DNA from: Patescibacteria group bacterium
GTDB taxonomy: Bacteria > Patescibacteriota > Patescibacteriia > Patescibacteriales > UBA12465
Direction: 5' to 3'
Assembly (NCBI GenBank): GCA_041661685.1
Contig: JBAZTY010000003.1
Location: 69,550-133,549, forward strand
Length of the DNA: 64,000 bases
Numbering within the stretch: position 1 is the first letter of the stretch; each line of letters starts with the position of its first letter. Made by a program: the position numbers and the translations under genes. Shown piece after piece: positions 5,987 through 20,329 of this stretch. The notes under the pieces are model-generated. The model did not search any database, was not told the origin of the DNA, and saw nothing but the letters and a program-made list of their open reading frames with translations.

Positions 5987-7885
5987 TTATGCACTCGCTT
6001 CTTCCTGCCGGCTTTCATCGAATTCCTTCTTGGCTTCTTCGAGCTCAAGCAGCTGGCGCGGATCGGAAGTAATCAGCTGGTCTTCGGTGTAAGACGCGAC
6101 CGCTTTCATAGCCACGTGCTTATTGCCCGCGAAGAAAATGCCTTCGCCGACGCCGCATTCGAGCAACAGATATTTCTCACCTTCAGTTAGCATGAAAGTC
6201 TTCTGGATCAAGTCGATAGCCGCCGGAGACTGCTTAAATAATAATTGCAAAGAAGAATTATTAACGATCGCCTGGCCGTAAGGAGAGGTCAAGAAGTCAT
6301 TAACGTCCTGCGTAATAGTCGTGACGCCCAAATAATATTTACGGCAACGTTTAACGAGAGCGAAGATGAACTTAGCCGAATCTTCGTGCTGCATCATCCA
6401 CCAAGCTTCATCAATGACTAGGATGCGCTTCTTCATCTCGCTACGAACGACGTTCCAAATGTAATTGACGATAGTATAAATAGCAATCGGGCGGAGTTCG
6501 TCTTCCAAGTCGCGGACCGAGAAACAGACGAGCTGATTGCTCATCTCGACGTTAGTCTGGTTATTGAGTAAGCCGGCAAAAGTTCCTTCGGTAAACTTTC
6601 TTAAGCGCAGAGCCAGGTCAGACCCGCCTTCCATACCGTCTAGAATCTGCTCAAAATCGGCCATAATCGGAGCTTCAATCTTTGATAAGTCAGAGTCGGG
6701 AGTAATATCTTTCTTCGCGTAAGTTTCGAGTAACGCGCGATCAACGATAGAATCTTCGTCATAGCTCAGGTTGCCTAACATCAAGCGCACTAAGCCTTTC
6801 AAGGTAATAACGGCGCTGCGGATGATATCTTTGGGCTTGGCTTCTCCGCCGATAGAGCGCGGTAAATCGAACGGGTTAATCTTATTCTCAGAAGACAAGG
6901 AAATATTGATATAGGTGCCGCCGACCGCTTCCGCTAAATGCTTGTATTCATATTCCGGATCAATGACGATGACGTCGGTCCCGAGCATTAAGGAACGCAA
7001 AATTTCTAATTTGATAGCATAGCTCTTACCGGCGCCGGAGGTCGCAAAGACGACAGAGTTAGCATTCTGAAGGCTGAAGCGATCAAAAAGGATAAGGCTG
7101 TTATTATGGCGGTTAATGCCATATAAGATACCTCGGTCGCTCGTGAGTTCGCTGGAGATGAACGGGAAAGAAGAGGCAATTGGGGAAGAATTCATGTTGA
7201 AGGTAATATATAATTCATCGTCCCCTAAAGGCAGGGTGGAATTGAAGCCCTGTTCTGATTGATAATAAACGCGGCGGGAATAAACTAGGCGGGAGCCGAA
7301 AACATCCTCGACCTGATCGCTTAAACGGTCCAGATCTTCAAGTTTATCGGCATAGATGGTGACATACAAAGCGAATTGAAAAAATTTCTCCGTTCCCTGA
7401 GTAAGCGCATCGCGCAAGTATTCAATATCGCGCAAAGCAGTTTCGCGCAATGGGTCGCGGGCGGCTCCCTTCTCTGCGTCAGAAACGATCTGCGCTTCCA
7501 GGGCGCCGACTTTATTCTTAAGTTGCTTCAAGATAATCGCGCTCTTAACTTGATAGAAGAACATCGAGACATCAAAGGTCACGTTCAGATTGATAATCGG
7601 CGCGAACCAGCCGACGGAGATATAGCGCGGATAAGAGACGATGAAGATGGTGCGCAAGAATTTATTGCCCAAGGCGAGATGATTAGCCTCGACCTTGAGG
7701 CTAGCGGGCGCGATAATATCGCGGACGGATAAGACGCCGCGGCGGAAGGCCTTCTCTTCTTCGATGATTTCCCGAGTCAATTCCGGGTTCTCCTCGATTG
7801 GGTGCGCCACGGGCTTAACCCCGATGGTAATCGGGGTATTGAGGCCTATCTTGGCCTTTTCTTCTTTTTTGCTGAAATCAATCAT
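5987..7885 (-). CDS. virB4: VirB4/TrbE/TraC-family conjugative ATPase, ATPase portion; N-terminal domain is in the upstream in-frame ORF
   Basis: 632 aa. Walker A VVFATSGAGKSYAI and Walker B/DEAW-type ILVIDEAWWMM. Architecture of T4SS VirB4 ATPases. Confidence 0.75.
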   Translation of the reverse strand: MIDFSKKEEKAKIGLNTPITIGVKPVAHPIEENPELTREIIEEEKAFRRGVLSVRDIIAPASLKVEANHLALGNKFLRTIFIVSYPRYISVGWFAPIINLNVTFDVSMFFYQVKSAIILKQLKNKVGALEAQIVSDAEKGAARDPLRETALRDIEYLRDALTQGTEKFFQFALYVTIYADKLEDLDRLSDQVEDVFGSRLVYSRRVYYQSEQGFNSTLPLGDDELYITFNMNSSPIASSFPFISSELTSDRGILYGINRHNNSLILFDRFSLQNANSVVFATSGAGKSYAIKLEILRSLMLGTDVIVIDPEYEYKHLAEAVGGTYINISLSSENKINPFDLPRSIGGEAKPKDIIRSAVITLKGLVRLMLGNLSYDEDSIVDRALLETYAKKDITPDSDLSKIEAPIMADFEQILDGMEGGSDLALRLRKFTEGTFAGLLNNQTNVEMSNQLVCFSVRDLEDELRPIAIYTIVNYIWNVVRSEMKKRILVIDEAWWMMQHEDSAKFIFALVKRCRKYYLGVTTITQDVNDFLTSPYGQAIVNNSSLQLLFKQSPAAIDLIQKTFMLTEGEKYLLLECGVGEGIFFAGNKHVAMKAVASYTEDQLITSDPRQLLELEEAKKEFDESRQEEASA

Positions 7886-7891
7886 ATTAGT

Positions 7892-8572
7892 TTATTTCTC
7901 TACCCTGAGCTTATCTAAATCGACTAATTCCTGATTCTGAGAGGTTTCTGGATTATATGTTTTATAATAAAGCTCAATTAAACTCTGGGTATCTAAGCGG
8001 GCCACGGCGACACCGAGAGATTCTAAGCCACCGGTAACGCTATCGATGCGGCGATCGAGCATCTCCTGATAATTCTTAAAAGTCTTGTCCTTGAGCTTAA
8101 TAACGGTCGCTGGCTTAAGCGCTTCGCTCAATAAGCTCATGAAGCCTTTATGCTTATCGGTCAGGGGATCATAAGGCACAATAACATAGAAACGCTTATT
8201 CATAATCTTGCCCAGCGAGGTCAATTCCTTGATGTATTCAATATAGTCGGCAGTCTGAACTTTCAATAATTTATTCATCTGCTCCTTCTCTTTGTTCTTT
8301 AAGTATTCCAAATAATTATTAATATCTAACTCGCGAGACTGGATAACAATCTGAAGCGTGAAAGTCAGGTTATTTAAGAAGCGGACATAAGAATCAATGA
8401 CTGCATTCTGTTCGTCTTCGCTCTTGAGCGCGAAATTAATACTGGAAACAAGAAGCACGGCGCGCAAAGTGCCGTCCTTCATCACGACGGTGTTATCCTT
8501 AATCTCGGCAATATTCAAATATTGCTGAGTGGAGGCGCTTATTTTATTCTTAGCCAAGCCTTTTTCTGACAT
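7892..8572 (-). CDS. VirB4-family N-terminal domain encoded as a separate ORF (split virB4)
   Basis: 226 aa. The motif ...DGTLRAVLLVSSINFALKSEDEQNAVIDSYVRFLNNL resembles the N-terminal region of Gram-positive VirB4 homologues. It is separated from the ATPase ORF by TAA plus 2 codons, in the same frame. Confidence 0.5.
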   Translation of the reverse strand: MSEKGLAKNKISASTQQYLNIAEIKDNTVVMKDGTLRAVLLVSSINFALKSEDEQNAVIDSYVRFLNNLTFTLQIVIQSRELDINNYLEYLKNKEKEQMNKLLKVQTADYIEYIKELTSLGKIMNKRFYVIVPYDPLTDKHKGFMSLLSEALKPATVIKLKDKTFKNYQEMLDRRIDSVTGGLESLGVAVARLDTQSLIELYYKTYNPETSQNQELVDLDKLRVEK

Positions 8573-8591
8573 AATTAAAATTTATCCTAGT

Positions 8592-9011
8592 TTATTCTCC
8601 TTTATAGCGTCCTTTGGTATCAACGACGAGCGCCAATTCGGCCAAGCGCGATTTCTTATACATTTTCGGAGCGACTATCGGCGCGACGGCCTTGACTTCA
8701 ATATTCGTTTCGCCGATTTCAGCAGCCATGATCCGATTATTCCATACTCTTATTCCGGGACGGCGCAAAGTCTGAAAAGCATTAAGCATAAAGAGATGGA
8801 AGGGGCGGCCGTTTATCTTAACGAAGGCGAATAGAGCAGCAAAGACGAGCGTCACGATACCGACGGTCAAGAACAAGGTAAAATCGAACAACTTGTAACT
8901 GATGCCGATGATAACGGCAGCGCCGAGAATAATCATGAATTGGCGCACGGTCAGAGGGCCGATAATCTTATTTTCGACGTCGATGAATTGAGGAACGGTG
9001 AACTGCTGCAT
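8592..9011 (-). CDS. PrgI/VirB3-like small membrane protein of T4SS
   Basis: 139 aa. DVENKIIGPLTVRQFMIILGAAVIIG followed by two TM helices. Position immediately upstream of virB4 is typical for VirB3/PrgI. Confidence 0.5.
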   Translation of the reverse strand: MQQFTVPQFIDVENKIIGPLTVRQFMIILGAAVIIGISYKLFDFTLFLTVGIVTLVFAALFAFVKINGRPFHLFMLNAFQTLRRPGIRVWNNRIMAAEIGETNIEVKAVAPIVAPKMYKKSRLAELALVVDTKGRYKGE

Positions 9012-9016
9012 ATATC

Positions 9017-10486
9017 TTAAAAAACTAACTTGCTATTTAAACTGACAATCGCTTCAATCTCATCCATGCTCAGATATTCCTGATTAGCAGCCTTGCGAGC
9101 TTCAGCTATCTGTTTCAGGGGCTGGCCTTTCGCGATTGCTTCTTGACCTAGACGCAGGTATAAACGGCTAACCGGACTCTGACGCCAAGCGCGAACGCCA
9201 GCAACCATCTTATCATAACCATCTTTCTCTAATAATTTTATTTTCGCGAAAACCTTAGAAGTTATTTCGGCTGGAGTCGTGCCGAGACGGCGGAAATTAA
9301 TTACATCCAAAAATTGCAATTCCTCAATCGGACCCATGACTTTCGGCATTGGCTTGATATCATGCATCTGCGGATGAGCGGCGGAGGAAGCAAGCGCTTG
9401 CTTGCCGGCTAAAGTACGGGCGGCAGCCATAGAAACTGGAGGCGTTGAAATAATCTTAGCGGCCGGAATAGCTGGAGCGAATTTAGGCGTAACAGGCGCA
9501 ACGGCTACAACTGGCGCGACTTCTTTATGCCCGCCAAAAAATTTCGTAAAGGCAGATTCATGCTTAACTGGAGCGATTTTAGGGGAAACAGGCGATATTT
9601 TCGGAGTGATTGGAACAATCGGAACGACCGGAGATACTTTCGGGGCGGTCGGAACAACAGGGGCTGGCGCAATCGGCTTAATTTCCGCAACTGGCTTATT
9701 CAAAACGACTGACTTAATTTCGGCTTTAACTTCCGGCTTAGGCAAATCTAACTGCGCCTCCGGCTTGGCTAATTCATGCTTCGTATCTAAAGGCGCTGGC
9801 ACGACAGACTTAGTCTCTCCTTTAGCTAGCGCTTGTTTTAAATTATATTCAGAACTTACCGGCGCAGCCTTATCAGCGCCGCCGATAATCTTATCTAATC
9901 GCGTCACCGGCGGCATGGAAACTGGAGCAGCTTGAGTAGTGACGGCTGGAGTAATCAATCCTTTAGAAATCCTGGTATCGCAGATCTTTAGGACGCGATC
10001 AATCTCCTCCGGGCTCAGATTCAGGCCTCCGATCTTAACGTCCTTAGATAAAGTATTACGCGTATCTATCTTACTCCTGATGCCGCGCGCGTACGTAGAA
10101 ACGATATTCTTAAAGCGGCTGATAGCGACAGCACTCGGCAGGACCAGACCCGCCTCTTTAATGACAACTTCAATATCCTTATCAAGATCTAAGGCGCGAA
10201 TCTCAGAAGTCAGTCCTAAATAATCAGCCATAGGCGCGAAGATCTTTTCCTTCAATTCTTTAACGAGCTGAGCGGCTGTTTCCGGGGTTAATAATAATTC
10301 TCCGGTCAAATAAGCTGGCAAATCCGAAAATTTCAGGCTCTTAACCATCAGTTTCATGATCACGATAGCTAAATCAACTTTATATTTCGTTTCTAATTCG
10401 GAAATAAGCGCCATCGCGGACGGCGAAGAAACCTGATCGCGCAGGTTTTTCGGAAGATTGTTGAATTGTTGTAAATAGTCGAACAT
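9017..10486 (-). CDS. Hypothetical protein with a central Pro/Val/Ala/Lys-rich low-complexity repeat region
   Basis: 489 aa with an N-terminal globular region. The central region (PVVPIVPITPKISPVSPKIAPV...) is encoded by imperfect direct repeats in the DNA, about 9470-9800. The C-terminal domain is conserved-looking. No TM helix. Confidence 0.5.
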   Translation of the reverse strand: MFDYLQQFNNLPKNLRDQVSSPSAMALISELETKYKVDLAIVIMKLMVKSLKFSDLPAYLTGELLLTPETAAQLVKELKEKIFAPMADYLGLTSEIRALDLDKDIEVVIKEAGLVLPSAVAISRFKNIVSTYARGIRSKIDTRNTLSKDVKIGGLNLSPEEIDRVLKICDTRISKGLITPAVTTQAAPVSMPPVTRLDKIIGGADKAAPVSSEYNLKQALAKGETKSVVPAPLDTKHELAKPEAQLDLPKPEVKAEIKSVVLNKPVAEIKPIAPAPVVPTAPKVSPVVPIVPITPKISPVSPKIAPVKHESAFTKFFGGHKEVAPVVAVAPVTPKFAPAIPAAKIISTPPVSMAAARTLAGKQALASSAAHPQMHDIKPMPKVMGPIEELQFLDVINFRRLGTTPAEITSKVFAKIKLLEKDGYDKMVAGVRAWRQSPVSRLYLRLGQEAIAKGQPLKQIAEARKAANQEYLSMDEIEAIVSLNSKLVF

Positions 10487-10536: not shown

Positions 10537-11475
10537 CTAGAGAGTCGTTATCGGCCGGCTCTGAGTTATATAGAATTTGCCCTGTTTATAGGCCCATTCG
10601 ATGTCGCAGGGGAATTTATAATGCTTCTCGATACCGGCGCATATCTTGGCTAGTTCTACTATCTGGCGGCCATTCAATTTCTGCTTGGACTGTCCCGATT
10701 TAGCAATCGGAACCCATTTTGTTCCGCCGGCAGAGCCTTTGATAATCTGCTTGATCTGAGGAGCGACATTGATATCTACAAGAGAATAATCCCGCTTATC
10801 TAAAACATAAGCATCGGGAGTAATCGATCCGGAAACAATCGCTTCGCCCAAGCCATAACCGGCCTCAATTATCATCTGATTCTTGTCCTTCGTCACGGGA
10901 TGGACCGTAAAGGTAATGCCGGATATTTCCGAATCGACCATAACTTGGATCACGACCGCGACGCCGACTTTTGTCTTTAATAATTTCTTCTCGTGGCGAT
11001 AAAAGATGGCGCGGGGCGTGAATAACGAGGACCAGCATTTCTTAACATTGATCAATAGGGTCTTTTCTGTAGTATTTAAATACGTTTCTAATTCTCCGGC
11101 CCAAGAAGCCGACGAAGAATCTTCGGCCGTCGCGCTAGAGCGGACCGCAACGAACTTGGCTTTCAGTTTCTTAAAATCGCTGACAATATCTTTTTCTAAA
11201 TCAACTGGCATCTTGGCGGCGGCAATTAAGTTGCGAATTTTTGCGGAAGCGCCGTCGACGGAATTGATATCTTTATAATTTACTTTCTTTAGAATCGCTT
11301 CTAATTCTTGCGTTAGGTCAGTTTCAGCGAGAAAACGATTAAAAGCTGAGGCTAAAATAACGAAACCCGAAGGAACCGGAATCTTAGCTTTAGTCATTTC
11401 TCCAAGAGAAGCTCCCTTGCCTCCAGCTTCGGCAACAGAATTTTTAGTAATCCGACTAAATGGCTTAATATACAT
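10537..11475 (-). CDS. Stand-alone PEP-synthase / pyruvate-phosphate-dikinase N-terminal ATP-grasp (nucleotide-binding) domain protein
   Basis: 312 aa. Motifs AEAGGKGASLGEM, AVRSSATAEDSSSASWAGELETYLN and CDIEWAYKQGKFYITQSRPIT match the PPDK_N domain of PpsA and rifampin phosphotransferase. It has no phosphohistidine domain and no PEP-binding TIM-barrel domain. Confidence 0.8.
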   Translation of the reverse strand: MYIKPFSRITKNSVAEAGGKGASLGEMTKAKIPVPSGFVILASAFNRFLAETDLTQELEAILKKVNYKDINSVDGASAKIRNLIAAAKMPVDLEKDIVSDFKKLKAKFVAVRSSATAEDSSSASWAGELETYLNTTEKTLLINVKKCWSSLFTPRAIFYRHEKKLLKTKVGVAVVIQVMVDSEISGITFTVHPVTKDKNQMIIEAGYGLGEAIVSGSITPDAYVLDKRDYSLVDINVAPQIKQIIKGSAGGTKWVPIAKSGQSKQKLNGRQIVELAKICAGIEKHYKFPCDIEWAYKQGKFYITQSRPITTL

Positions 11476-11546
11476 ATCATTATTATTTACTTATATTAAT
11501 ATTAGCATAAAATAACCAAAAAATGTAATTAATCAGACTTAAATTA

Positions 11547-11575
11547 TTGACAAGATTACAATAATATTATAAAAT
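11547..11575 (+). promoter_or_regulatory. Sigma70-like promoter for the histidine-phosphatase gene (TTGACA, 15-17 nt spacer, TATAAA/TAAAAT)
   Basis: TTGACA at 11547-11552 with an AT-rich -10 at 11568-11575. The start codon is at 11656. Confidence 0.4.
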
Positions 11576-11655
11576 ATTAGAAATATTTAGAACTTTAATA
11601 ACAAACAAATCACCTCATAAACCTCTGGTCCCGTAGTTAACGGGTCTATTACTCG

Positions 11656-12255
11656 ATGAAAACTTTAGTAATAATCCGTCACGGACGGAAAGACGAAGAT
11701 GGAACTTTGGTCGATAAGGATCAGCTCGCTGAGATTGAAAACATCGGAATCGCCGGCTTGAATGATTTAGTCAAAAAACATCAAGGACTAGTCATCTTTC
11801 ATTTAGGTACCGCTATCGAAAGGACGGGGCAAACCATAAAAGCCTACGAAAGACATCTCGATATATCTAACGCGATTAATTCTTTCGGCGGCTACTTGCC
11901 GGCTGATGCCCGCTTAGGAAGCAATAAGATTTTTAAAGAATTCAGCGAGAATCCCGAAATCGTCAAAGAAGCGGAAAGGACTACTTGGTTCAATGCTTTT
12001 AGGAGATATAATCCGAAATTCATCGAGAAGATACAAATCAACATGCTCGATGCGATTACTGATATATTCTCGCGTGTCGATGACGGCAGCTTGGTTATCA
12101 GCGCTGGCCATACGCCCATGATCGAATGGCTCGCTCTCGGCATTGACGAGAACGACCATAAAATTTCTTGCAAAATTAAACTTAAGGAATTGACCGGCTT
12201 CATCTTTACTGAAGACAAGGGGCGCATCCAAGTTACAAGGACTATCGGGTTCTAA
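11656..12255 (+). CDS. Histidine phosphatase superfamily protein (SixA/phosphoglycerate-mutase-like; RHG motif)
   Basis: 199 aa. N-terminal IIRHGRK (catalytic RHG), ERTGQT (conserved Arg) and AGHTPMIEW (second catalytic His). Encoded convergently to the swivel-domain paralogs. Confidence 0.7.
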   Translation: MKTLVIIRHGRKDEDGTLVDKDQLAEIENIGIAGLNDLVKKHQGLVIFHLGTAIERTGQTIKAYERHLDISNAINSFGGYLPADARLGSNKIFKEFSENPEIVKEAERTTWFNAFRRYNPKFIEKIQINMLDAITDIFSRVDDGSLVISAGHTPMIEWLALGIDENDHKISCKIKLKELTGFIFTEDKGRIQVTRTIGF

Positions 12256-12281
12256 ATGAACCGAATTAAAGAAATTAAAGA

Positions 12282-12310
12282 AACCGACACCAAAAGTGCC
12301 GGTTTTTTAT
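12282..12310. terminator. Bidirectional terminator between the histidine phosphatase gene and paralog A
   Basis: 9-bp stem AACCGACAC/GTGCCGGTT with one mismatch, followed by a T-run; preceded by an A-rich stretch. Confidence 0.5.
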
Positions 12311-12311
12311 T

Positions 12312-14207
12312 TTATTTTATTATCCTCACTATTCCTTTATCCGCATCGACTTCGACGAGGTCGCCATCTTTCAGGACTTTAGTCGCGATCCTGGTGGCGA
12401 TGACGCAAGGCACGTTCATTTCACGAGCGACAATAGCCGCATGCGAAGTTACGCCGCCTTGGTCGGTCACGAAAGCTCCGGCTTTTTTCATAGCCGGCAA
12501 TAAATCCGGCTGCGTCGAGATAGAAACGAGGATATCCCCCTTCTTCATCTTTTCCATATCGCGGATAACATTAACGATCCGAACGATCCCCTTGGCTTGT
12601 CCGCGGCAACCGCATTGCCCTTTCAGCTCTGAAACTTCCCTGCTCTCGTCTTTCTGGATATATTTCTTGATTATCTGCTCGGCTGCACGGCCGCTATAAT
12701 AAACTTCGGTGTCTTTGGCCGTATAATACAAGCTGAGCTTAGCGCGAGATTTTATCTCTTCCTTGTCCGATTGATGATCGAACAGAGCTGCTTTTATCTC
12801 CTTCGAAGTCATGAATCTCGTTTCTTTCAGGCTCAAACCAATACGCCGAGCTATCTCCTCTAAGAAGAAAGTCGTCTTATAAAGAGCGAAGAGCTGGGCA
12901 TAGCGGCGATATATCTTCGTCACCATGAAATCGCCCCAGGCACCGAAAAAACGAGTCGTCTTTTTTGATAGGCTTATTTTTTTGATGAGAGCCTGTTTAT
13001 CTGCCAGTACCATCTTTATCTTTTTCTCTTGGTCTCCATAGGTTTTCTTGAGGTTATTGTCTCCATTAACCAAGCGGACTAACTCTTTCAGATAATGCTC
13101 AAAATTATAGACGCCCTGCTCTTCAGTATAAATGAACTTGGTATAGAAATACTTGGCATAATGCTTCTGCAGATCATTCAATATTTTCTTATTGATCCGG
13201 TTCTTGAGAGTCCGGACGACCTCCTCGAATTTATCCTCATACTCTTTACTATGAGTATACAGGCCGAGAAATTTAACATCTTCTTCTTTGAACTTCCTGA
13301 ATAATTCCTTGAAAATGGAAAATTGCTTAGGATCAGACTGGACAGCAATACCGATCTTAATCAGAGCATCTTGCTCTTCTTTCAAGAGCGAATCCTGTTC
13401 CGGCTGAGTAAGCAGGGCGAGATATTCCTCAATTTTCGCAGCCGGAGCCTTCAGTTCTCTTAGCATCTGCTTGCCGCGATTAGTCAGATTATCGCCGAAC
13501 ATGTCAGCGGCCACCGGGATCCAGCCCCATTGATAATATTCCTGATGCACTTCTTCATGCTCCTTATAGTAGCGCCACAGCTTCTCTGAAGATACCTTAT
13601 CCAGACCGCTTTCAGGAATCTTAGCGACCGTAGCGACTAGCTTATCGGCGAAAAGTCTTATCTGAGAATTAACCTCTTCCATGAAATCGACGTCGCTCTC
13701 GAACTTGTCGACTAAATGGTCGCCTACGGCTTGCGCGTCCTGCTTATCAAAATAGAACCAGAGATGATAGCCCCGATAAACGCAAGCTTGATGCTGATAA
13801 GCTTTCCCGCCTGGCTGAGCGAATTGATTCGTAAAGCAATAAAAAGGGATGGCCATGAACCAGGGGTTAGCGTTGATGATCTCTTCGGCTAACAGCCATT
13901 CACGATTAAATATCTTCTCGACTTCTGCGCCTTTATTCTTCTGGAAAAGATTGATAAGCTCCGGCCCGATCGCATAATCGGTATTGAAGGAATAGCTTTT
14001 CTTCCTATTTTTAAGTTCTTGCGCGATTATGCCTTCCTTAATCAGCTTATCCAGTTCGCGGGTGATATTGGCCGCATCTTTCTTGACAGCCTCTCTTATT
14101 TCTAAAAAATAAAAAGACCGCTTCGGGCTGGCGGTCAGAAGCATCAATATCTCATAAGCGGTCTGCGATTTGAATAGATTCTTCATATATATATGTCTTG
14201 AAGACAA
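12312..14207 (-). CDS. PEP-utilizing-enzyme mobile (phosphohistidine swivel) domain protein, paralog A. Has an N-terminal winged-helix-like segment and a large helical domain.
   Basis: 631 aa. The C-terminus GGVTSHAAIVAREMNVPCVIATRIATKVLKDGDLVEVDADKGIVRIIK matches the PEP-utilizer swivel domain with the catalytic His. The N-terminus (TAYEILMLLTASPKRSFYFLEIREAV...ITRELDKLIKEGII) is wHTH-like. Confidence 0.7.
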   Translation of the reverse strand: MSSRHIYMKNLFKSQTAYEILMLLTASPKRSFYFLEIREAVKKDAANITRELDKLIKEGIIAQELKNRKKSYSFNTDYAIGPELINLFQKNKGAEVEKIFNREWLLAEEIINANPWFMAIPFYCFTNQFAQPGGKAYQHQACVYRGYHLWFYFDKQDAQAVGDHLVDKFESDVDFMEEVNSQIRLFADKLVATVAKIPESGLDKVSSEKLWRYYKEHEEVHQEYYQWGWIPVAADMFGDNLTNRGKQMLRELKAPAAKIEEYLALLTQPEQDSLLKEEQDALIKIGIAVQSDPKQFSIFKELFRKFKEEDVKFLGLYTHSKEYEDKFEEVVRTLKNRINKKILNDLQKHYAKYFYTKFIYTEEQGVYNFEHYLKELVRLVNGDNNLKKTYGDQEKKIKMVLADKQALIKKISLSKKTTRFFGAWGDFMVTKIYRRYAQLFALYKTTFFLEEIARRIGLSLKETRFMTSKEIKAALFDHQSDKEEIKSRAKLSLYYTAKDTEVYYSGRAAEQIIKKYIQKDESREVSELKGQCGCRGQAKGIVRIVNVIRDMEKMKKGDILVSISTQPDLLPAMKKAGAFVTDQGGVTSHAAIVAREMNVPCVIATRIATKVLKDGDLVEVDADKGIVRIIK

Positions 14208-14251: not shown

Positions 14252-15838
14252 TCAACCTTTTTTCTTCTTCATTAAACGCACTATTCCCTGCTCCGCGTCC
14301 ATCTCTACCGAATCGCCATCGCGGAGAACTTTAGTCGCCACCTTAGTGCCGACGATACACGGAATCCTTAATTCTCTGGAAACGATAGCAGCATGGCAGG
14401 TAATGCCGCCAGCGTCAGTAATGATTGCCGCCGCCCTCTTCATAGCCGGAACCAAATCCGGCGTAGTTGCTATTGAGACCAAGATATCGCCCTTCTTCAT
14501 CTTAGGAATATCGCTAGGAATATTAATGACTTTGATCGCGCCCCTAGCCTTGCCAGGAAAAGCACAGTCACCCGACAGTGAATTGACATTCTTGATATTC
14601 TCTCTGATGATATTCAGGCGAGCTGATATCTTTCTCGCTTCTGCTCCGCTCACATTCAGATCATCCTTGAAATCCCCGACAGAATAATACAGATTGAACT
14701 TATATCTTTCATTCAAGATAGCAACATCAAAATTATTGCCCAAGAGGAGCTCCTTGAACTCATGCGGATAAAGATAGCGGACTTGGCGGATAGCCAGATA
14801 GCGGCGGCGGCCGATTTCCTTGAATAATCTCTCGACTATCGACCAGCTATGAAACATGGAATCCTTTCTAGCCCCCTTGGTAAACACGAGATTCCTAGCA
14901 AAAGCTAATATCTCTTCGTGCTTCTTATCTATCTTGAGGTCGCGGACTAATTTCTTCTGCCTATTCAATATTTCTTGCCGACCAGCTTTCACGCCTTGCA
15001 GGGACTTCTTGGGATTCACACCCTGCCTGACCAAACTTGATAAGATATCGATAAAATACTCTCTTCCCCAAGACGGCCCGACCATGCCATAACCGAGCCA
15101 GCCGAAAGCTTTGGCATGTCGGCTAATCATCAAATCTAATCTCTTATCTAATTTTGACAATTCCCTGTCAATATCTTCGACGCCATGCTTGGCAAAGATT
15201 TTCTTCAAAGCCGGCTTACTAATGATGTGCCCCAATATCGACAGAAGTTGTTTATATTCTTCAGAGGCCTTAGCGTCCCTAGTCGGCGTCGTGAGAGTAG
15301 AGAAAGCTTCACCCAAAGAATAGTCTTGACCGGCAATCCTATCTTTGAGGTAATTCCTCAGATATTTAGAGAGGATATTTTCCCCAAAATCAGCCGCCGT
15401 CTGCATCCAATGAAGGACATGCAAGCGGCTATAGATAGCATAGTATTCATCATAAACCTTGAATAATTCCTTGTCGGAGAGCTTGGTTAAATTTATCTTC
15501 TTCAAGCTGTCAGAGGCGCGATATAGTTCGCCTTCTGCTTTTTCAAGATCTTTAAAATAACGATCGCCCCATTTCTGGTTCTTCTTAATATTCTCCAATA
15601 GCTCCAAGCCGATCTCTTTGAATTCCTGCCGAGCCACTAGCAACTGGCAGATATTATCTTGAAAGATCATTGCCAGGCATGGCATCTTTCTTTTAAAGCC
15701 ATAACTTTTAAGAAACCTATTCGCCCGGGCCGTATTCCAAGCAATACCAGCCATCATTGGATAATAATTCGGCATTTCCTCCATACAGAAGAGTTCTTGG
15801 CGGCTGACGGAAATATTTTTACGCTTACGGCTGTTCAT
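14252..15838 (-). CDS. PEP-utilizing-enzyme mobile domain protein, paralog B
   Basis: 528 aa. C-terminus GGITCHAAIVSRELRIPCIVGTKVATKVLRDGDSVEMDAEQGIVRL. The N-terminal helical domain shares the FGWLxY...G motif with paralog C. Confidence 0.7.
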   Translation of the reverse strand: MNSRKRKNISVSRQELFCMEEMPNYYPMMAGIAWNTARANRFLKSYGFKRKMPCLAMIFQDNICQLLVARQEFKEIGLELLENIKKNQKWGDRYFKDLEKAEGELYRASDSLKKINLTKLSDKELFKVYDEYYAIYSRLHVLHWMQTAADFGENILSKYLRNYLKDRIAGQDYSLGEAFSTLTTPTRDAKASEEYKQLLSILGHIISKPALKKIFAKHGVEDIDRELSKLDKRLDLMISRHAKAFGWLGYGMVGPSWGREYFIDILSSLVRQGVNPKKSLQGVKAGRQEILNRQKKLVRDLKIDKKHEEILAFARNLVFTKGARKDSMFHSWSIVERLFKEIGRRRYLAIRQVRYLYPHEFKELLLGNNFDVAILNERYKFNLYYSVGDFKDDLNVSGAEARKISARLNIIRENIKNVNSLSGDCAFPGKARGAIKVINIPSDIPKMKKGDILVSIATTPDLVPAMKRAAAIITDAGGITCHAAIVSRELRIPCIVGTKVATKVLRDGDSVEMDAEQGIVRLMKKKKG

Positions 15839-15851
15839 ATGTTTAGCAAAA

Positions 15852-17363
15852 TTATCTTATCCTCTTTATCACTTTTACTATTCCTTTTCTGGCGTCGACT
15901 TCTACTATATCGCCGTCTTTCAAAATTCGCGTAGCGATTTTTGTGCCGATAATGCAGGGAATCTTCATCTCCCTAGAGACGATAGCGGCATGGCAGGTGA
16001 CTCCGCCGGCATCAGTAATGATAGCGCTAGCGCGATTCATGGCCGGCACCAATGACGGATTAGTAGAAAAACTAACTAGAATATCACCTTTGTTAAATTT
16101 CTTAATATCGGCAACAGCATTGATAATCTTGACTGCGCCCCGCACGCGACCAGGAAAAGATACTTGGCCGGTAAAAATATCCACATTAGTCTTGATGAGT
16201 TTCGGCATCTGCATATATCTAACCATACTTTCAGCTTCTTTCCCTACCAAGACACGGCTTTTACCCTTAATAGTTACGAAAGCGGAAAGATGGAATCTCT
16301 CGGGCAATTCTTCAGCTCTCGGCCGGCGCCCAGAACGCAAGAATCCTCTAATTTCTTCTGGGGTCAAATATTTCGCTTGTGTCTGAGAACAGAAAAGACG
16401 GCGCCCTAATTCTGTAAACCATGAGCTCATCGCATAATTCAGATAATATATCTGCATCTCTTTGCGCAATTCCTTGATAAAAGAAAATTCGCGCAATAGG
16501 CGGATGTCATGACGGGCGGAAACCGATAACGAACTTTCAATCCTCTTCTGCCAAGCGCCTAATTTTTCCCTCTCTCGCTTATTAGCCGACAGGATCTTTC
16601 CCGCTTTATCTCCTGCCCTGCCTTTCAATAATTCGAAATAATACTCTGGTCCGGCAGCCTGGCCGTCATAATAATATTGCAGCCAGCCGAAGCGCCTAGA
16701 CAATGATTGCAGCTGGCGGCGCTGAGAAATATTATCCAGGTTAGCAAGCTTCGAAGCTCTTTTAAAGGCGCGCCATAGCTTCGGCTGTCTCTGCCAGCGC
16801 GCCAATAATCCCAAAGCTGCCTCAGCTTCACGGCGGACATAGGTGGCTTTGAGAGGAGTTAATAAGCGGCTAAAAATTACGCCAGGATCGCCAAAAGCAG
16901 ATAGCGAGCCGCGAATATTTTTCTCTACGAACACAGAATATTTATTATCGCCCATGTCCACATATTGCGGGATAGCAGACCAATCAGCTATCTCCAGCCA
17001 GATACGACAAAAATCGTCATAAATCTTGCTTAATCCACGCGGTGACATCTTTTTTAAATCTTTGTGCTTGAGGCTAGAGACAAATCGTTTAATTTTAGCA
17101 AAACCAATATAATGCTGCCGCACTATTTCTTCCGCCAAAGTTGAGTCAGCCTGCAAGCGCGGCAAAAAATAAGCGCCAGCGGCGGAAAATTGGCTAGCAT
17201 CCGGAGCCCAGAGCGCCTTACCTTCCTGAAAAATGAATATAGAATCGATAAATATCTTCCCTTTGGTCTTCAAACGCAGATCATAAAAAGTCTTATTCCA
17301 AAGGAGCCAAGGATGCGGCGGCACGTTATAATCTTCCGTAAAGAGAGTAAATTTTTTGGACAT
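15852..17363 (-). CDS. PEP-utilizing-enzyme mobile domain protein, paralog C
   Basis: 503 aa. C-terminus GGVTCHAAIVSREMKIPCIIGTKIATRILKDGDIVEVDARKGIVKVIK. N-terminal domain is homologous to paralog B. Confidence 0.7.
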   Translation of the reverse strand: MSKKFTLFTEDYNVPPHPWLLWNKTFYDLRLKTKGKIFIDSIFIFQEGKALWAPDASQFSAAGAYFLPRLQADSTLAEEIVRQHYIGFAKIKRFVSSLKHKDLKKMSPRGLSKIYDDFCRIWLEIADWSAIPQYVDMGDNKYSVFVEKNIRGSLSAFGDPGVIFSRLLTPLKATYVRREAEAALGLLARWQRQPKLWRAFKRASKLANLDNISQRRQLQSLSRRFGWLQYYYDGQAAGPEYYFELLKGRAGDKAGKILSANKREREKLGAWQKRIESSLSVSARHDIRLLREFSFIKELRKEMQIYYLNYAMSSWFTELGRRLFCSQTQAKYLTPEEIRGFLRSGRRPRAEELPERFHLSAFVTIKGKSRVLVGKEAESMVRYMQMPKLIKTNVDIFTGQVSFPGRVRGAVKIINAVADIKKFNKGDILVSFSTNPSLVPAMNRASAIITDAGGVTCHAAIVSREMKIPCIIGTKIATRILKDGDIVEVDARKGIVKVIKRIR

Positions 17364-17375
17364 ATTTTAATATTC

Positions 17376-17786
17376 CTAAACTCGGCAAAAACTCGACTTA
17401 TACTTTTCCGGATGATGAGCCTTTAGCCTTTTTATCTTACAGAAAAAGCGAAATCCGGCGATTTCGCTTTTTAATTGCGGCAAATCAACTTGCTGATCAT
17501 AGCCTAAGCAGATTATCTCCGGACGATATTTTTTCAGGATAAGCCAGCGGTTCTTAAGATTTCCTAAAACAGCCCTCCCTGTTATACCCAGCTCTTTAAG
17601 GGCGCGTCTAACCTTACGCTGGCGAGTCTTCTCGTCATCTTGCGGCGCACGTTTCTTAATCGCCAAGACATTCTTGTCGCGAGCAATTATGACTATCAGC
17701 TCATCGCCAAAAAGGCGGGCCTGTTTGAAATAATCCAAGTGCCCCGGATGGAGATTATCGAATGTTCCGAAAGTCATGACGCGCAT
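17376..17786 (-). CDS. Cytidylyltransferase-family nucleotidyltransferase (TagD/RibL-like, HxGH motif)
   Basis: 136 aa. TFGTFDNLHPGHLDYFKQARLFGDELIVIIARD matches the (H/T)xGH nucleotidyltransferase fold. Ends 13 nt upstream of paralog C. Confidence 0.6.
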   Translation of the reverse strand: MRVMTFGTFDNLHPGHLDYFKQARLFGDELIVIIARDKNVLAIKKRAPQDDEKTRQRKVRRALKELGITGRAVLGNLKNRWLILKKYRPEIICLGYDQQVDLPQLKSEIAGFRFFCKIKRLKAHHPEKYKSSFCRV

Positions 17787-17834
17787 AATAGAGACAAAAC
17801 ACCACTCTTCACAGAGCGGTGTTTTTATTGTTCT

Positions 17835-18986
17835 TTATTTTATCGCCTTTTTCAATGCTGCGACCTTATCAGTCTTTTCCCATCTGAATTCTGGGCGACC
17901 GAAATGGCCGTAAGCCGCGGTCTTCAAGAAGACCGGCTTTCTTAATTCTAAGTGATCAATAATCGCTTTCGGGCGGAAATCAAAGACCTTCTCGATAGCC
18001 TTCAAGATATCTTCTTCCGCATATTTATTCGTGCCAAAAGTGTCGATATAGATGCCGACCGGCTTAGCGACCCCAATCGCATAAGCGACCTGGACCTCGC
18101 ATTTATCGGCTAATCCAGCCGCAACGACGTTCTTAGCCGCATAGCGAGCCATATAAGCGCCGGAGCGGTCGACTTTGGACGAATCCTTGCCCGAGAAGCA
18201 GCCGCCGCCATGACGCGCGACGCCGCCATAGGTATCGACAATGATCTTGCGGCCAGTCAGACCGGTATCGGCCGCCGGACCGCCGAAAGTAAAGGCGCCA
18301 GTAGAATTGATATAGACTTTAGTCTTCTTGTCCATTAATTTGCCTAAAACCGGCTTAATGACTTTCGCTAAGATATCGGCACGGACCTTAGAAAGCTTAA
18401 CCTTCTCGCTATGGCAAGCGGCGATAACGACAGTTTCGACGCGCTTAGCAATGCCGTCATGATATTCGACGGTCACCTGGCTTTTTCCGTCCGGTCTTAA
18501 ATAAGGCAGGGTTTTATTCTTGCGGACTTCAGCTAATCTAAAAGTTAATTTATGAGCCAAGGTTATCGGCAAAGGCATGAGCTCCTTGGTCTCGTTAGTT
18601 GCGAAGCCATACATCAAACCTTGGTCACCAGCTCCCTGCTCCTTGAATTCGCCTGCGCCCTCATCGACGCCTTGCGCGATTTCCGCGCTCTGCGCGTGAA
18701 GAGATGACATGATACCGACGCTGTCGCAGTCGAAGCCGGATTCAGCGCCGTTATAGCCGATGCTCTTCAAAACCTTGCGGACAATATCGTCAACTTGAAT
18801 ATACTCTTTAGTTCTGACTTCTCCGCCAACAACAATCATGCCGTTAGTGGCGAATGATTCCACGGCCGCATGGCTGTGCGGGTCTCTCTTTAACATCTCG
18901 TCTAAGATGCCATCGGAAATCTGATCGCAGACCTTATCCGGATGTCCTTCGGTAACAGATTCCGAAGTGATTAATTTTATGTTCAT
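17835..18986 (-). CDS. metK: S-adenosylmethionine synthetase
   Basis: 383 aa. GHPDKVCDQISD and the typical MetK domain order. Confidence 0.9.
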   Translation of the reverse strand: MNIKLITSESVTEGHPDKVCDQISDGILDEMLKRDPHSHAAVESFATNGMIVVGGEVRTKEYIQVDDIVRKVLKSIGYNGAESGFDCDSVGIMSSLHAQSAEIAQGVDEGAGEFKEQGAGDQGLMYGFATNETKELMPLPITLAHKLTFRLAEVRKNKTLPYLRPDGKSQVTVEYHDGIAKRVETVVIAACHSEKVKLSKVRADILAKVIKPVLGKLMDKKTKVYINSTGAFTFGGPAADTGLTGRKIIVDTYGGVARHGGGCFSGKDSSKVDRSGAYMARYAAKNVVAAGLADKCEVQVAYAIGVAKPVGIYIDTFGTNKYAEEDILKAIEKVFDFRPKAIIDHLELRKPVFLKTAAYGHFGRPEFRWEKTDKVAALKKAIK

Positions 18987-19043
18987 ATTTTTTGTTCCGC
19001 TGTGGTAACGGAGATAATTAAGTTATGTCCTGCTATCAAACTT

Positions 19044-20300: not shown

Positions 20301-20329
20301 ATTTATTTAAAATATTTTTAAGCTCTTAT

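What the first reader, a model, noticed from the sequence alone, without database searches (positions are those of the whole stretch)
11656..12255. Histidine-phosphatase (RHG) gene embedded in the phosphohistidine-swivel locus in opposite orientation
The only plus-strand gene in the 9-20 kb block encodes a phosphoglycerate-mutase/SixA-type histidine phosphatase (IIRHGRK...AGHTP). SixA-type enzymes dephosphorylate phospho-His on HPt domains. A phosphatase that removes phosphate from the phospho-His swivel domains, or from their phosphorylated products, would make this a kinase/phosphatase regulatory pair. It is separated from the ATP-grasp gene by a 180-bp AT-rich divergent promoter region and converges on paralog A at a shared bidirectional terminator.
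Basis: inference. Interest (0 to 1): 0.6.

Follow-up and report, generated by a model that had tools for sequence, protein, structure and literature searches.

The report
Divergent histidine phosphatase in dikinase cluster
A small gene reading against the grain of its neighbours encodes a very diverged histidine-type phosphatase found almost only in tiny Patescibacteria (CPR) genomes, nearly always inside a cluster of split ATP-driven kinases, so it probably removes phosphate that those kinases add, though from what is unknown.

Summary
ORF 11656-12255 (+, 199 aa) is real and is the only plus-strand gene in a run of 24 minus-strand genes. A 180-bp, ~18% GC spacer with a near-consensus promoter separates it from the ATP-grasp gene, and it converges on paralogue A at a hairpin flanked by A/T runs. 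Pfam, NCBIfam and PDB sequence searches miss it. A confident AF2 model (pLDDT 93) matches only branch-1 histidine phosphatases. The R8-H9/R56/H152 core is kept in 82-87 of 90 relatives, and 18 of 90 reach His_Phos_1. The canonical general-acid Glu is absent. It is a separate Patescibacteria clade, not SixA, dPGM or CobC. The neighbours form a two-component RPH/HpeHI/PpsAB-type small-molecule dikinase: one ATP-grasp subunit plus three substrate/swivel subunits. In about 40 loci, including an unrelated genomic backbone, the gene lies antisense in such clusters, usually beside the A-type subunit. About half of the clusters lack it, and relatives carry further phosphatases. The functional link is well supported, but the substrate is unresolved. 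I lean towards a small-molecule phospho-product (~0.45) over the swivel phospho-histidine (~0.27).

The parts
11656..12255 (+). Target CDS, 199 aa: diverged branch-1 histidine-phosphatase-fold protein. Catalytic core R8/H9 (11677-11682), R56 (11821-11823), H152 (12109-12111). Family-specific E157. Helical cap at about residues 90-139.
   Evidence: ORF; AF2 pLDDT 93.4, pTM 0.90; Foldseek: all top hits are histidine phosphatases; conservation in 90 relatives; HH alignment to CobC maps the core
11476..11655 (.). 180-bp AT-rich divergent intergenic region shared with the ATP-grasp gene
   Evidence: GC 0.18. In all 37 other loci where the 5' neighbour is visible, that neighbour is divergent
11547..11575 (+). 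Sigma70-like promoter TTGACA-17-TAAAAT (11/12) facing the target. An equivalent promoter is conserved in relatives.
11623..11646 (+). Conserved leader element CTCTGGTCCCGTAGTTAACGGGTC (4-5 bp stem, 7-nt loop) ending about 10 nt before the ATG. No Shine-Dalgarno is present. The element is unique in the window.
   Evidence: It also lies upstream of distant family members in L096 and L100. No Rfam match.
12281..12305 (.). Hairpin of 11 pairs between the convergent target and paralogue A, flanked by A-runs and T-runs: a likely bidirectional terminator
   Evidence: MFE z = -3.5
10537..11475 (-). Stand-alone ATP-grasp subunit (PPDK_N only, 312 aa), equivalent to HpeI/PpsB
   Evidence: PF01326, E = 1.5e-94; 67-87% identical relatives in 80 kept loci
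12312..14207 (-). Paralogue A, 631 aa: ArsR/MarR-like wHTH (about aa 1-80), an RPH-type substrate-binding domain, and a C-terminal phospho-His swivel domain (TDQGGVTSH)
   Evidence: the only full-length structural match is rifampin phosphotransferase, E about 6e-12; the wHTH matches SmtB/CadC/MarR-type regulators
14252..15838 (-). Paralogue B, 528 aa: substrate-binding domain plus swivel domain (TDAGGITCH)
15852..17363 (-). Paralogue C, 503 aa: substrate-binding domain plus swivel domain (TDAGGVTCH)
17376..17786 (-). Small cytidylyltransferase-like nucleotidyltransferase (136 aa) that heads the swivel-gene operon in nearly all loci that reach it. Whether it belongs to the system is inferred from position only.

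Best explanation
The gene encodes a cytoplasmic, catalytically competent member of the histidine-phosphatase superfamily (branch 1). It belongs to a small, very diverged clade restricted to Patescibacteria. It is a dedicated but optional accessory of a two-component RPH/HpeHI/PpsAB-type dikinase system. In that system, one ATP-grasp subunit (10537-11475) loads the beta-phosphate of ATP onto the swivel histidine of several substrate-binding/swivel subunits (A, B and C here; up to about nine elsewhere), and each subunit passes the phosphate to its own substrate. The target uses H9 as nucleophile, with R8, R56 and H152 holding the phosphate, to take off a phosphoryl group that this system put on. 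My committed reading is that it hydrolyses a phosphorylated small molecule: the product of the A-type subunit or a later intermediate derived from it. This is the role of the HAD phosphatases HpeD and AcvF in characterised two-component dikinase pathways. It is transcribed on its own from a strong divergent promoter with a conserved leader, so kinase and phosphatase levels can be set independently. Shown: the ORF, fold, catalytic core, clade, neighbour identities, the conserved antisense embedding and the association with the A-type subunit. Inferred: that it is active, that it acts on dikinase-derived phosphate, and which substrate it uses. Confidence is about 0.8 for 'phosphatase functionally dedicated to the dikinase cluster' and 0.45 for the small-molecule version.
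For: Fold and chemistry. The AF2 model has pLDDT 93.4. All 50 top Foldseek PDB hits are histidine phosphatases, led by the small-molecule enzymes PhoE, riboflavin-pathway HFP, RosC and phosphoserine phosphatase. R8, H9, R56 and H152 are kept in 82-87 of 90 relatives. 18 of 90 relatives hit Pfam His_Phos_1. HH alignment to E. coli CobC spans 144 columns including a cap of the same size, and PhoE aligns over residues 6-163. Link to the cluster. In all 13 distinct target-anchored loci the gene is antisense inside PPDK_N + swivel clusters. 14 of 33 informative PPDK_N-anchored loci carry it, always divergent from paralogue A (21 loci) or PPDK_N (16 loci). Distant members at about 20-30% identity are again in such clusters, including one on a dnaA/ribosomal-protein backbone. 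Presence is associated with the A-type subunit (Fisher p = 0.002). Small-molecule reading. The neighbours are RPH-type small-molecule dikinase subunits (PMC12167813). Characterised clusters of this kind encode a phosphatase for the small-molecule intermediate (HpeD in PMC9618137; AcvF in bioRxiv 10.1101/2022.04.28.489975). Related CPR clusters carry up to four phosphatases of mutually very divergent types (HP177, HP288, HP306/315 and a HAD) alongside many swivel paralogues. This fits substrate-specific enzymes better than several enzymes all acting on the near-identical swivel domain.
Against: There is no biochemical evidence. The canonical general-acid Glu is missing: N90 aligns with CobC's Glu, G88 is invariant, and position 89/90 is not conserved as acidic in close relatives. 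That would handicap hydrolysis of ordinary alcohol phosphomonoesters, and it suits good leaving groups (aryl, enol or acyl phosphates) or phospho-His equally well. A kinase and a phosphatase for the same small molecule, with no modifying enzyme between them in the cluster, would be a futile cycle. Unlike the other cluster phosphatases, which are co-directional with the kinases, this one is always antisense with its own promoter, which looks regulatory rather than pathway-like. The best PDB sequence hits of the family profile are SixA-like proteins. Some loci keep PPDK_N and the target with no swivel gene within 10 kb (L009, L042-44). One distant member is outside any cluster (L096). The loci used for the statistics are not phylogenetically independent.
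Confidence: 0.45

Rival explanations
1. Phospho-histidine protein phosphatase. The enzyme strips the phosphoryl group from the swivel histidine of A, B and C, perhaps preferentially A. It would act as a brake or reset on the whole dikinase system, as SixA does for NPr and for the catalytic phospho-His of Ndk.
For: The family profile's best PDB sequence hits are SixA-like proteins 4hbz (E = 8e-6) and 3f2i, with both RHG and GHxP motifs aligned. One relative was named SixA by JGI. The canonical general-acid Glu is absent. By my own reading of the E. coli SixA sequence (PELTP versus CobC PELNE), SixA lacks it too. The gene always has its own divergent promoter and conserved leader, unlike the co-directional accessory phosphatases. 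It is retained next to PPDK_N where no swivel gene is nearby. Precedents: SixA dephosphorylates NPr, which lies downstream of a swivel-domain enzyme I (PMC7948535), and the catalytic pHis of Ndk (PMC12934123). A PPDK-derived regulatory histidine kinase, VadK, exists (PMC13400623).
Against: The protein has a full ~50-residue cap like small-molecule histidine phosphatases, whereas SixA is a 161-aa cap-less core. E. coli SixA aligns only over 57 N-terminal columns at 53% probability. No SixA structure is among the top 50 fold hits. TIGR00249 is hit weakly by only 3 of 90 relatives. Draining the swivel pHis would turn the system into an ATPase. Half of the clusters manage without it.
Confidence: 0.27
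2. Phosphomutase or phosphotransfer partner. The RHG histidine is itself phosphorylated, by a phosphorylated product or directly by a swivel pHis, and passes the phosphate to another position or acceptor. The protein would then work as a dPGM-like mutase or transferase rather than as a net hydrolase.
For: The superfamily includes mutases that work through the same phospho-His intermediate, and dPGM structures are among the fold hits. Lack of the Glu that normally activates water would slow hydrolysis of the phospho-enzyme and so favour transfer. HpeH alone catalyses phosphotransfer between small molecules, so transfer chemistry exists in this system type (PMC12167813). This reading would avoid a futile cycle.
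Against: There is no specific evidence. dPGM hallmarks (RHGxSxWN, HGNSLR, the C-terminal tail) are absent. The top fold hits are hydrolases.
Confidence: 0.1
3. Unrelated housekeeping phosphatase, or a decaying gene, that sits in a hypervariable island between conserved flanks (PPDK_N and CTP_transf/MetK) only through inherited synteny.
For: The region between PPDK_N and the CTP_transf-like gene varies from 0 to about 10 genes between related genomes. Most loci share the same T4SS-like and MetK flanks. One distant member lies outside any cluster. R8 is substituted in two close relatives.
Against: The island cargo is almost exclusively swivel paralogues and phosphatases, not random genes. The association recurs on a different backbone (L098: dnaA/dnaN and L11/L1) and at about 20-30% identity. 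The catalytic core is under strong conservation. There is no affinity to dPGM, CobC or SixA equivalogs.
Confidence: 0.08

Closest known systems
SixA phosphohistidine phosphatase (E. coli; TIGR00249) and SixA-like proteins (PDB 4hbz, 3f2i)
   Same: Both have the branch-1 histidine-phosphatase fold. Both have RHG at the end of strand 1, an Arg in an 'xRTxQT / LRAEQT' helix, and a second His in a G/S-H-x-P motif. Both have no Glu at the canonical general-acid position (for SixA this is my own reading of the sequence). SixA-like proteins are the best PDB sequence matches of the family profile.
   Different: The target is 199 aa with a ~50-residue four-helix cap, whereas SixA is a 161-aa cap-less core. 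HH alignment to E. coli SixA covers only the N-terminal 57 columns. The target protein itself does not hit TIGR00249. It has a family-specific conserved Glu five residues after the second His. Its genomic context is a dikinase cluster, not a two-component or PTS-Ntr system.
Small-molecule branch-1 histidine phosphatases: PhoE (1h2e), CobC alpha-ribazole phosphatase, RosC, the riboflavin-pathway HFP (9mmh), and iPGM-independent phosphoserine phosphatase (4ij5/4ij6)
   Same: These are the best structural matches (E about 1e-6, TM about 0.6). They have the same length class and the same cap size. The profile alignment runs through RHG, the Arg, the cap and the second His.
   Different: Identity is only 13-15%. 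The canonical general-acid Glu is replaced (N90, invariant G88). The second-His motif is GH(S/T)PxIE instead of (S/T)HGG/HQG. The protein is not detected by Pfam or NCBIfam models. There is no cobalamin, riboflavin or serine-pathway context.
HpeD / AcvF / phenylphosphate-carboxylase delta subunit: phosphatases encoded in two-component dikinase clusters
   Same: These are the functional analogue: a phosphatase gene embedded with a split ATP-grasp + substrate/swivel dikinase, removing the dikinase-derived phosphate from a small-molecule intermediate. HAD genes of this kind also occur in related CPR clusters.
   Different: They belong to the HAD superfamily, not the histidine-phosphatase fold. 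They are co-directional with catabolic genes (carboxylases and others) that are absent here. The target is antisense and optional.
Two-component small-molecule dikinases HpeHI, CreHI and PpsAB, and single-chain rifampin phosphotransferase (for the neighbouring genes)
   Same: There is a stand-alone PPDK_N ATP-grasp protein, plus separate proteins with an RPH-type substrate-binding domain and a C-terminal swivel domain carrying T/SxxGGxxxH.
   Different: One ATP-grasp gene serves three (elsewhere up to about nine) diverse substrate/swivel paralogues. One paralogue carries an N-terminal ArsR-type wHTH. The cluster contains phosphatases but no catabolic enzymes. The host is a reduced Patescibacteria genome.

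Membership tests
Histidine phosphatase superfamily, branch 1 (Pfam His_Phos_1, PF00300) | Alpha/beta fold of the PGM/PhoE type | tested here: met
   AF2 model pLDDT 93.4, pTM 0.90. All 50 top Foldseek PDB hits are histidine phosphatases or dPGMs, with best E = 8.5e-7 and TM 0.61.
Histidine phosphatase superfamily, branch 1 (Pfam His_Phos_1, PF00300) | RHG motif with the nucleophilic His at the end of strand 1 | tested here: met
   R8-H9-G10. R is present in 82 of 90 relatives and H in 85 of 90. It aligns with the RHG of CobC, SixA, 4hbz and PhoE.
Histidine phosphatase superfamily, branch 1 (Pfam His_Phos_1, PF00300) | Second Arg and second His completing the phosphate pocket | tested here: met
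   R56 is present in 83 of 90 relatives and H152 in 87 of 90. They align with CobC 'ERAQHT' and 'VSHQGV' and with 4hbz 'GHAP'.
Histidine phosphatase superfamily, branch 1 (Pfam His_Phos_1, PF00300) | General acid/base Glu after strand 3 (the RLxE position) | tested here: not met
   CobC's Glu aligns with N90. G88 is invariant, and positions 89/90 are not conserved as acidic in close relatives. A family-specific E157 (81 of 90) might substitute; this was not tested.
Histidine phosphatase superfamily, branch 1 (Pfam His_Phos_1, PF00300) | Score above the Pfam gathering threshold | tested here: not met
   The window protein has no hit at E<=1. However, 18 of 90 family members do hit PF00300, with best E = 1.5e-10, so the link is transitive.
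SixA (TIGR00249) | Minimal ~160-aa core without the helical cap insertion | tested here: not met
   The protein is 199 aa with four helices at residues 90-139. The cap aligns with that of CobC and PhoE. E. coli SixA is 161 aa.
SixA (TIGR00249) | Match to the SixA equivalog model or full-length homology to SixA | tested here: not met
   No NCBIfam hit for the protein. 3 of 90 relatives hit TIGR00249 weakly. HH against E. coli SixA gives 53% probability over 57 columns.
SixA (TIGR00249) | (S/G)-H-x-P motif at the second His | tested here: met
   GHTP in the window protein. P154 is present in 88 of 90 relatives. It aligns with GHAP of 4hbz and GHEP of 3f2i.
SixA (TIGR00249) | Phospho-histidine protein phosphatase activity | not testable with these tools
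   This needs an in vitro assay with phosphorylated swivel proteins.
   Only 2+2 of 90 relatives hit dPGM models and 3 of 90 hit CobC, all weakly. There are no glycolytic or cobalamin neighbours.
Two-component RPH-type small-molecule dikinase (HpeHI/CreHI/PpsAB), for the neighbouring genes | A stand-alone ATP-grasp (PPDK_N) protein, plus a separate protein with an RPH-like substrate-binding domain and a C-terminal swivel His domain | tested here: met
   PF01326 E = 1.5e-94, with no other domain. PF00391 lies at the C-termini of A, B and C with the GGxT(S/C)H motif. The model of A matches RPH full-length at E about 6e-12. The definition comes from PMC12167813.
Two-component RPH-type small-molecule dikinase (HpeHI/CreHI/PpsAB), for the neighbouring genes | ATP -> AMP + Pi dikinase chemistry with transfer of the beta-phosphate to a small molecule | not testable with these tools
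   Biochemistry is required.

The most novel reading that the evidence does not exclude
The ATP-grasp protein, the wHTH-bearing swivel protein A and this phosphatase form a previously unrecognised histidine phosphorelay for gene regulation. PPDK_N would phosphorylate the swivel His of A. The phosphorylation state of A, drained either by its substrate or by this dedicated phospho-His phosphatase, would set DNA binding by its ArsR-type wHTH at the shared divergent promoter. This would be the first phospho-histidine phosphatase known to act on a PEP-utilizer swivel domain. It would also be a third kind of His-based signalling, beside two-component systems and the PTS.
Probability: 0.15. Interest if true: 0.85.

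Novelty: new variant of a known kind. Interest (0 to 1): 0.55.

Why it matters
Patescibacteria (CPR) have tiny genomes of about 1 Mb, yet some devote 10-20 kb to this array: one ATP-grasp subunit, up to about nine substrate/swivel subunits, and several phosphatases. I found no paper in the searchable library that describes it. The only related mention is that RPH-like genes in CPR have been counted as rifampin-resistance genes (PMC8651080). Recognising the array as a one-to-many split dikinase with dedicated phosphatases reframes those calls. It also points to a substantial, unexplored piece of CPR metabolism or regulation, such as salvage, detoxification, envelope chemistry or signalling. The target defines a histidine-phosphatase clade invisible to Pfam and NCBIfam, with an altered acid/base arrangement. 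It is a ready-made, small, soluble test case for whether histidine phosphatases police swivel-domain phospho-histidines. All the partners are encoded side by side, so reconstitution is straightforward.

Tried and rejected
- Direct family assignment failed: Pfam and NCBIfam gave no hit at E<=1. PDB sequence search with the single protein and with the 22-sequence profile gave only noise.
- Model coordinates are not exposed, so I could not check whether E157 or E178 reaches the active site.
- Orthology to dPGM, CobC or SixA was considered and rejected.
- The idea that the target and the other cluster-encoded histidine phosphatases (HP177, HP288, HP306/315) form one cluster-specific radiation was suggested by motifs shared by eye (HxxxxE, DxRLG). 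HH gave only a superfamily-level N-terminal match to HP315 and nothing to HP288, so I do not claim it.
- The leader hairpin has no Rfam match and unremarkable folding energy (z = -0.7). It shows too little sequence variation to demonstrate covariation.
- 'Inherited synteny only' was rejected because of L098 and other distant loci.
- The argument that the target is always divergent from the transcription unit containing PPDK_N was dropped as near-trivial, because PPDK_N is the last gene of a co-directional array.
- One context look-up was uninformative because the contig was only 2.4 kb.
Full report
**1. Observation**

The window has an ATG-initiated ORF at 11656-12255 on the + strand. It encodes 199 aa that begin MKTLVIIRHGRK and contain ...VISAGHTPMIEW.... 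A rough gene map shows it is the only + strand gene in a run of 24 otherwise co-directional genes from 3943 to 39728. The other + ORFs listed in 9-20 kb are shadows of - strand genes.

The gap to the upstream, divergent gene (10537-11475) is exactly 180 bp and is about 18% GC. It contains an 11/12 sigma70-like promoter, TTGACA-17-TAAAAT, at 11547-11575, pointing into the ORF. The 56-bp gap to the convergent gene 12312-14207 holds an 11-pair hairpin at 12281-12305. The hairpin is followed by T-rich runs on both strands and folds better than 199 of 200 shuffles.

**2. Is it a histidine phosphatase?**

Direct searches do not show it. Pfam and NCBIfam give nothing, even at E<=1. PDB sequence searches with the protein or a 22-sequence profile give only noise. 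The call is nevertheless right, on three independent grounds:

- **Fold.** An AlphaFold2 model built on the family alignment is confident (pLDDT 93.4, pTM 0.90). All 50 best Foldseek matches in the PDB are branch-1 histidine phosphatases or dPGMs. They are led by PhoE, the riboflavin-pathway HFP, RosC and a phosphoserine phosphatase (E about 1e-6, TM about 0.6, 13-15% identity).
- **Transitive sequence links.** An exhaustive profile search of 1.84 billion representatives finds only 118 relatives at E<=1e-3, nearly all 190-210 aa. Of 90 relatives aligned, 18 reach Pfam His_Phos_1, with best E = 1.5e-10. The broader profile hits SixA-like 4hbz (E = 8e-6), 3eoz, 3f2i, dPGM, PhoE and PGAM5 in the PDB.
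- **Catalytic core.** The nearly invariant residues across those 90 sequences are the catalytic core itself: R8 (82/90), H9 (85), R56 (83) and H152 (87). P154, E157, G88, G51 and K12 are also conserved. HH alignment to authentic E. coli CobC (83% probability, 144 columns) maps RHG, the second Arg and the second His onto their CobC counterparts.

There are two departures from the textbook enzyme:

- The canonical general-acid Glu is missing. CobC's Glu aligns with N90, next to an invariant G88.
- The second-His motif is GH(S/T)PxIE, with a family-specific Glu at position +5.

**3. Which kind of histidine phosphatase?**

It belongs to none of the curated kinds. Among the 90 relatives, weak NCBIfam hits are scattered: CobC 3, SixA 3, dPGM 2+2. 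The GHxP motif and the missing Glu resemble SixA-like proteins. The statement that SixA lacks the Glu is my own reading of its sequence.

The protein also carries a ~50-residue four-helix cap (residues 90-139) of the same size as in CobC and PhoE. E. coli SixA is a 161-aa cap-less core and aligns only over the N-terminal 57 columns. So the protein is a separate, very diverged clade with SixA-like motifs on a PhoE/CobC-like chassis.

The clade is rare and appears confined to Patescibacteria. There are 22 clusters in 5.8 billion proteins at word-index sensitivity. There are 8 loci among about 185,000 species-representative genomes, and the informative titles read Patescibacteria or Falkowbacteria. 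The window protein is 100% identical to a 'Patescibacteria group bacterium' MAG protein.

**4. What are the neighbours?**

- Gene 10537-11475 is a stand-alone PPDK_N ATP-grasp protein (E = 1.5e-94), with no swivel or substrate domain.
- Genes 12312-14207 (A), 14252-15838 (B) and 15852-17363 (C) each end in a PEP-utilizers swivel domain with the GGxT(S/C)H histidine motif. Upstream of it, each has a 400-500-aa region whose last ~130 residues align with the RPH/PigC/'PRK06241' family.
- An AF2 model of A (pLDDT 86) has one full-length structural relative, rifampin phosphotransferase (E about 6e-12). Its first ~80 residues match ArsR/SmtB/MarR winged-helix regulators. JGI annotators noted the same fusion.

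This is the architecture recently defined for HpeHI, CreHI and phenylphosphate synthase PpsAB. In those systems an ATP-grasp component loads the swivel His of a separate substrate-binding component, which then phosphorylates a small molecule (PMC12167813). What is new here is the one-to-many arrangement: one ATP-grasp gene with three (elsewhere up to about nine) different substrate/swivel genes.

**5.

*Target-anchored loci.* In all 13 distinct loci fetched through the target family, at 37-93% identity, the gene lies inside a PPDK_N + swivel cluster and on the opposite strand.

*PPDK_N-anchored loci.* Anchoring instead on the highly conserved PPDK_N protein gave 80 metagenome loci at 67-87% identity. 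Of these, 33 were informative: 14 carry the target and 19 do not.

*Position of the gene.* Wherever the gene is present and its 5' neighbour is visible, that neighbour is divergent. It is paralogue A in 21 loci and PPDK_N in 16. Presence is associated with the A-type subunit ([[9,5],[2,17]], Fisher p = 0.002) and with more accessory phosphatases, 1.2 versus 0.3 per locus. These loci are not phylogenetically independent.

*Distant members (about 20-30% identity).*
- P0064 is divergent from an A-type swivel gene.
- P0036 lies between PPDK_N and a swivel gene.
- P0052 sits antisense in a PPDK_N + swivel cluster on a wholly different backbone, next to dnaA/dnaN and the L11/L1 ribosomal protein genes.
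- P0045 lies outside any cluster.

The association is therefore not inherited synteny.

*Accessory status.* The family occurs almost only in these clusters, but the clusters often lack it, so it is an accessory component. A few loci keep PPDK_N and the target with no swivel gene within 10 kb (L009, L042-44). Others keep PPDK_N alone. PPDK_N is under strong conservation there, so partners probably exist elsewhere in those genomes (inference).

**6. The wider cluster**

In relatives, the stretch between PPDK_N and a small CTP_transf-like gene varies from 0 to about 10 genes. Its cargo is almost exclusively swivel paralogues and phosphatases:
- the target;
- a 177-aa protein that follows it on the same strand;
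- 288-300-aa and 306-317-aa His_Phos_1-type proteins;
- a 199-aa HAD hydrolase.

These phosphatase families are mutually very divergent. HH links the target profile to HP315 only over the N-terminal RH(S/G)xK region, and does not link it to HP288 at all. In this window the target is the only phosphatase in the cluster.

**7. Mechanism**

*What is well supported (about 0.8).* This is an active histidine-phosphatase-fold enzyme functionally dedicated to the split dikinase system.

*What it dephosphorylates is not settled.* I favour a phosphorylated small molecule, either the product of the A-type subunit or a derivative of it (about 0.45). The reasons are:
- The neighbours are small-molecule dikinase subunits.
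- Every characterised cluster of this type encodes a phosphatase that removes the dikinase-derived phosphate from a small-molecule intermediate: HpeD, AcvF and the phenylphosphate carboxylase delta subunit.
- The protein has the capped architecture of small-molecule histidine phosphatases.
- Several very different phosphatases accompanying many kinase paralogues is easier to explain by different substrates than by repeated targeting of the near-identical swivel domain.

*The phospho-His alternative (about 0.27).* It draws on:
- the SixA-like motifs;
- the missing general acid;
- the unique antisense, separately promoted arrangement;
- precedents in which SixA drains NPr and the catalytic pHis of Ndk.

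The missing Glu fits either phospho-His or good leaving groups such as the aryl phosphates made by PpsAB, CreHI and HpeHI. Both readings face the futile-cycle objection. That objection is itself an argument that expression must be tightly and separately controlled, as the gene's layout suggests. A mutase or transfer role (about 0.1) and mere co-location (about 0.08) remain possible.

**8. Side observation: a conserved leader element**

Upstream of the target, relatives conserve the TTGACA-N17-TATAAT promoter, a 'GAACnTTAAAA' block, and a near-invariant element CTCT(G/T)GTCCCGTAGnnAACGGGG that ends about 10-15 nt before the start codon.

The element is unique in the window and has no Rfam match. 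It also precedes the distant family members in L096, which is outside any cluster, and L100. It therefore travels with the gene and is more conserved than the protein. Loci that have it lack a Shine-Dalgarno sequence, while loci without it show GGAGG-like sites. Its folding energy is unremarkable and there is too little variation to prove pairing. I regard it as an unexplained cis-regulatory element.

**9. Novelty and verdict**

The superfamily, its chemistry and the two-component dikinase type are all known. Three things appear to be new:
- a histidine-phosphatase clade invisible to the standard models, with an altered acid/base set-up;
- its dedicated, antisense pairing with a split dikinase;
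- the one-to-many dikinase/phosphatase array in Patescibacteria.

I found no description of any of these. RPH-like genes in CPR have only been tallied as putative rifampin-resistance genes. I rate this a new variant of a known kind and moderately interesting (0.55). If the gene proves to be a swivel-domain phospho-His phosphatase within a wHTH-linked phosphorelay, it would deserve a much higher rating.

Noticed in passing
window 11576-11655 (element at 11623-11646); also L001 ~9965-9990, L009, L010, L012, L053, L096 ~9964-9990, L100 ~1257-1282: Near-invariant leader element CTCT(G/T)GTCCCGTAGnnAACGGGG just upstream of the start codon of the target and of distant family members (28-45% protein identity), including one outside any dikinase cluster. 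Loci that have it lack a Shine-Dalgarno sequence. No Rfam match, and function unknown. A 'GAACnTTAAAA' block after the -10 hexamer and a 'TATAAACC' block are also conserved.
   Followed up: partly
window 12312-14207 (-), wHTH at about 13968-14207: Paralogue A fuses an ArsR/MarR-type winged-helix DNA-binding domain to an RPH-type substrate-binding domain and a phospho-His swivel domain. It is the best conserved swivel paralogue (50-75% identity across many Patescibacteria) and usually shares the divergent promoter region with the target. It may be an enzyme-regulator.
   Followed up: partly
L001 10616-12155; L003 1707-2573 and 7338-8288; L005 10596-12415; L007 6793-7713; L012 10732-13382: Related clusters carry up to four further phosphatases: a 177-aa protein on the target's strand (its RHG Arg is replaced, 'VLHF'), 288-300-aa and 306-317-aa His_Phos_1-type proteins with large cap insertions, and a 199-aa HAD hydrolase. 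None of these is present in this window.
   Followed up: partly
L009, L040-L045, L051 (PPDK_N-anchored loci): In some genomes the highly conserved stand-alone PPDK_N gene (79-82% identical to the window's) sits directly next to the CTP_transf-like and MetK genes with no swivel gene within 10 kb, with or without the target. The region between PPDK_N and CTP_transf behaves as an expandable island holding 0 to about 10 genes.
   Followed up: partly
window 17376-21286 (-): A 136-aa cytidylyltransferase-like nucleotidyltransferase (GTFDNLHPGH motif, RibL/TagD-like by my reading) heads the swivel operon in nearly all loci that reach it. It is preceded by SAM synthetase, SAH hydrolase and a PfkB-family kinase. 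A possible functional link between the nucleotidyltransferase and the dikinases was not examined.
   Followed up: no
window 5987-10486 (-): Downstream of PPDK_N in most loci lies a conserved 468-496-aa protein with a Pro/Ala/Val-rich low-complexity centre and no Pfam match. It is followed by PrgI-like, TraC-like and VirB4/DUF87-like (type IV secretion-like) genes.
   Followed up: no
window 12441-12449, 14346-14354 region, 15943-15951 region (swivel motifs of A, B, C): All three swivel domains keep a Thr two residues before the catalytic His (GGVTSH, GGITCH, GGVTCH). This is the position of the regulatory phospho-Thr in PEP synthase and PPDK, as noted in PMC12167813. No DUF299-type regulator was looked for.
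   Followed up: no
window 26313-34538 (-): A single giant ORF of 2741 aa appears in the rough gene map. It was not analysed.
   Followed up: no
L009 (CAZFBV010000005.1): The record is titled 'uncultured Gammaproteobacteria bacterium', but the locus is collinear with the Patescibacteria window, with 79% identity for the target. This is probably a mislabelled or mis-binned MAG.
   Followed up: no
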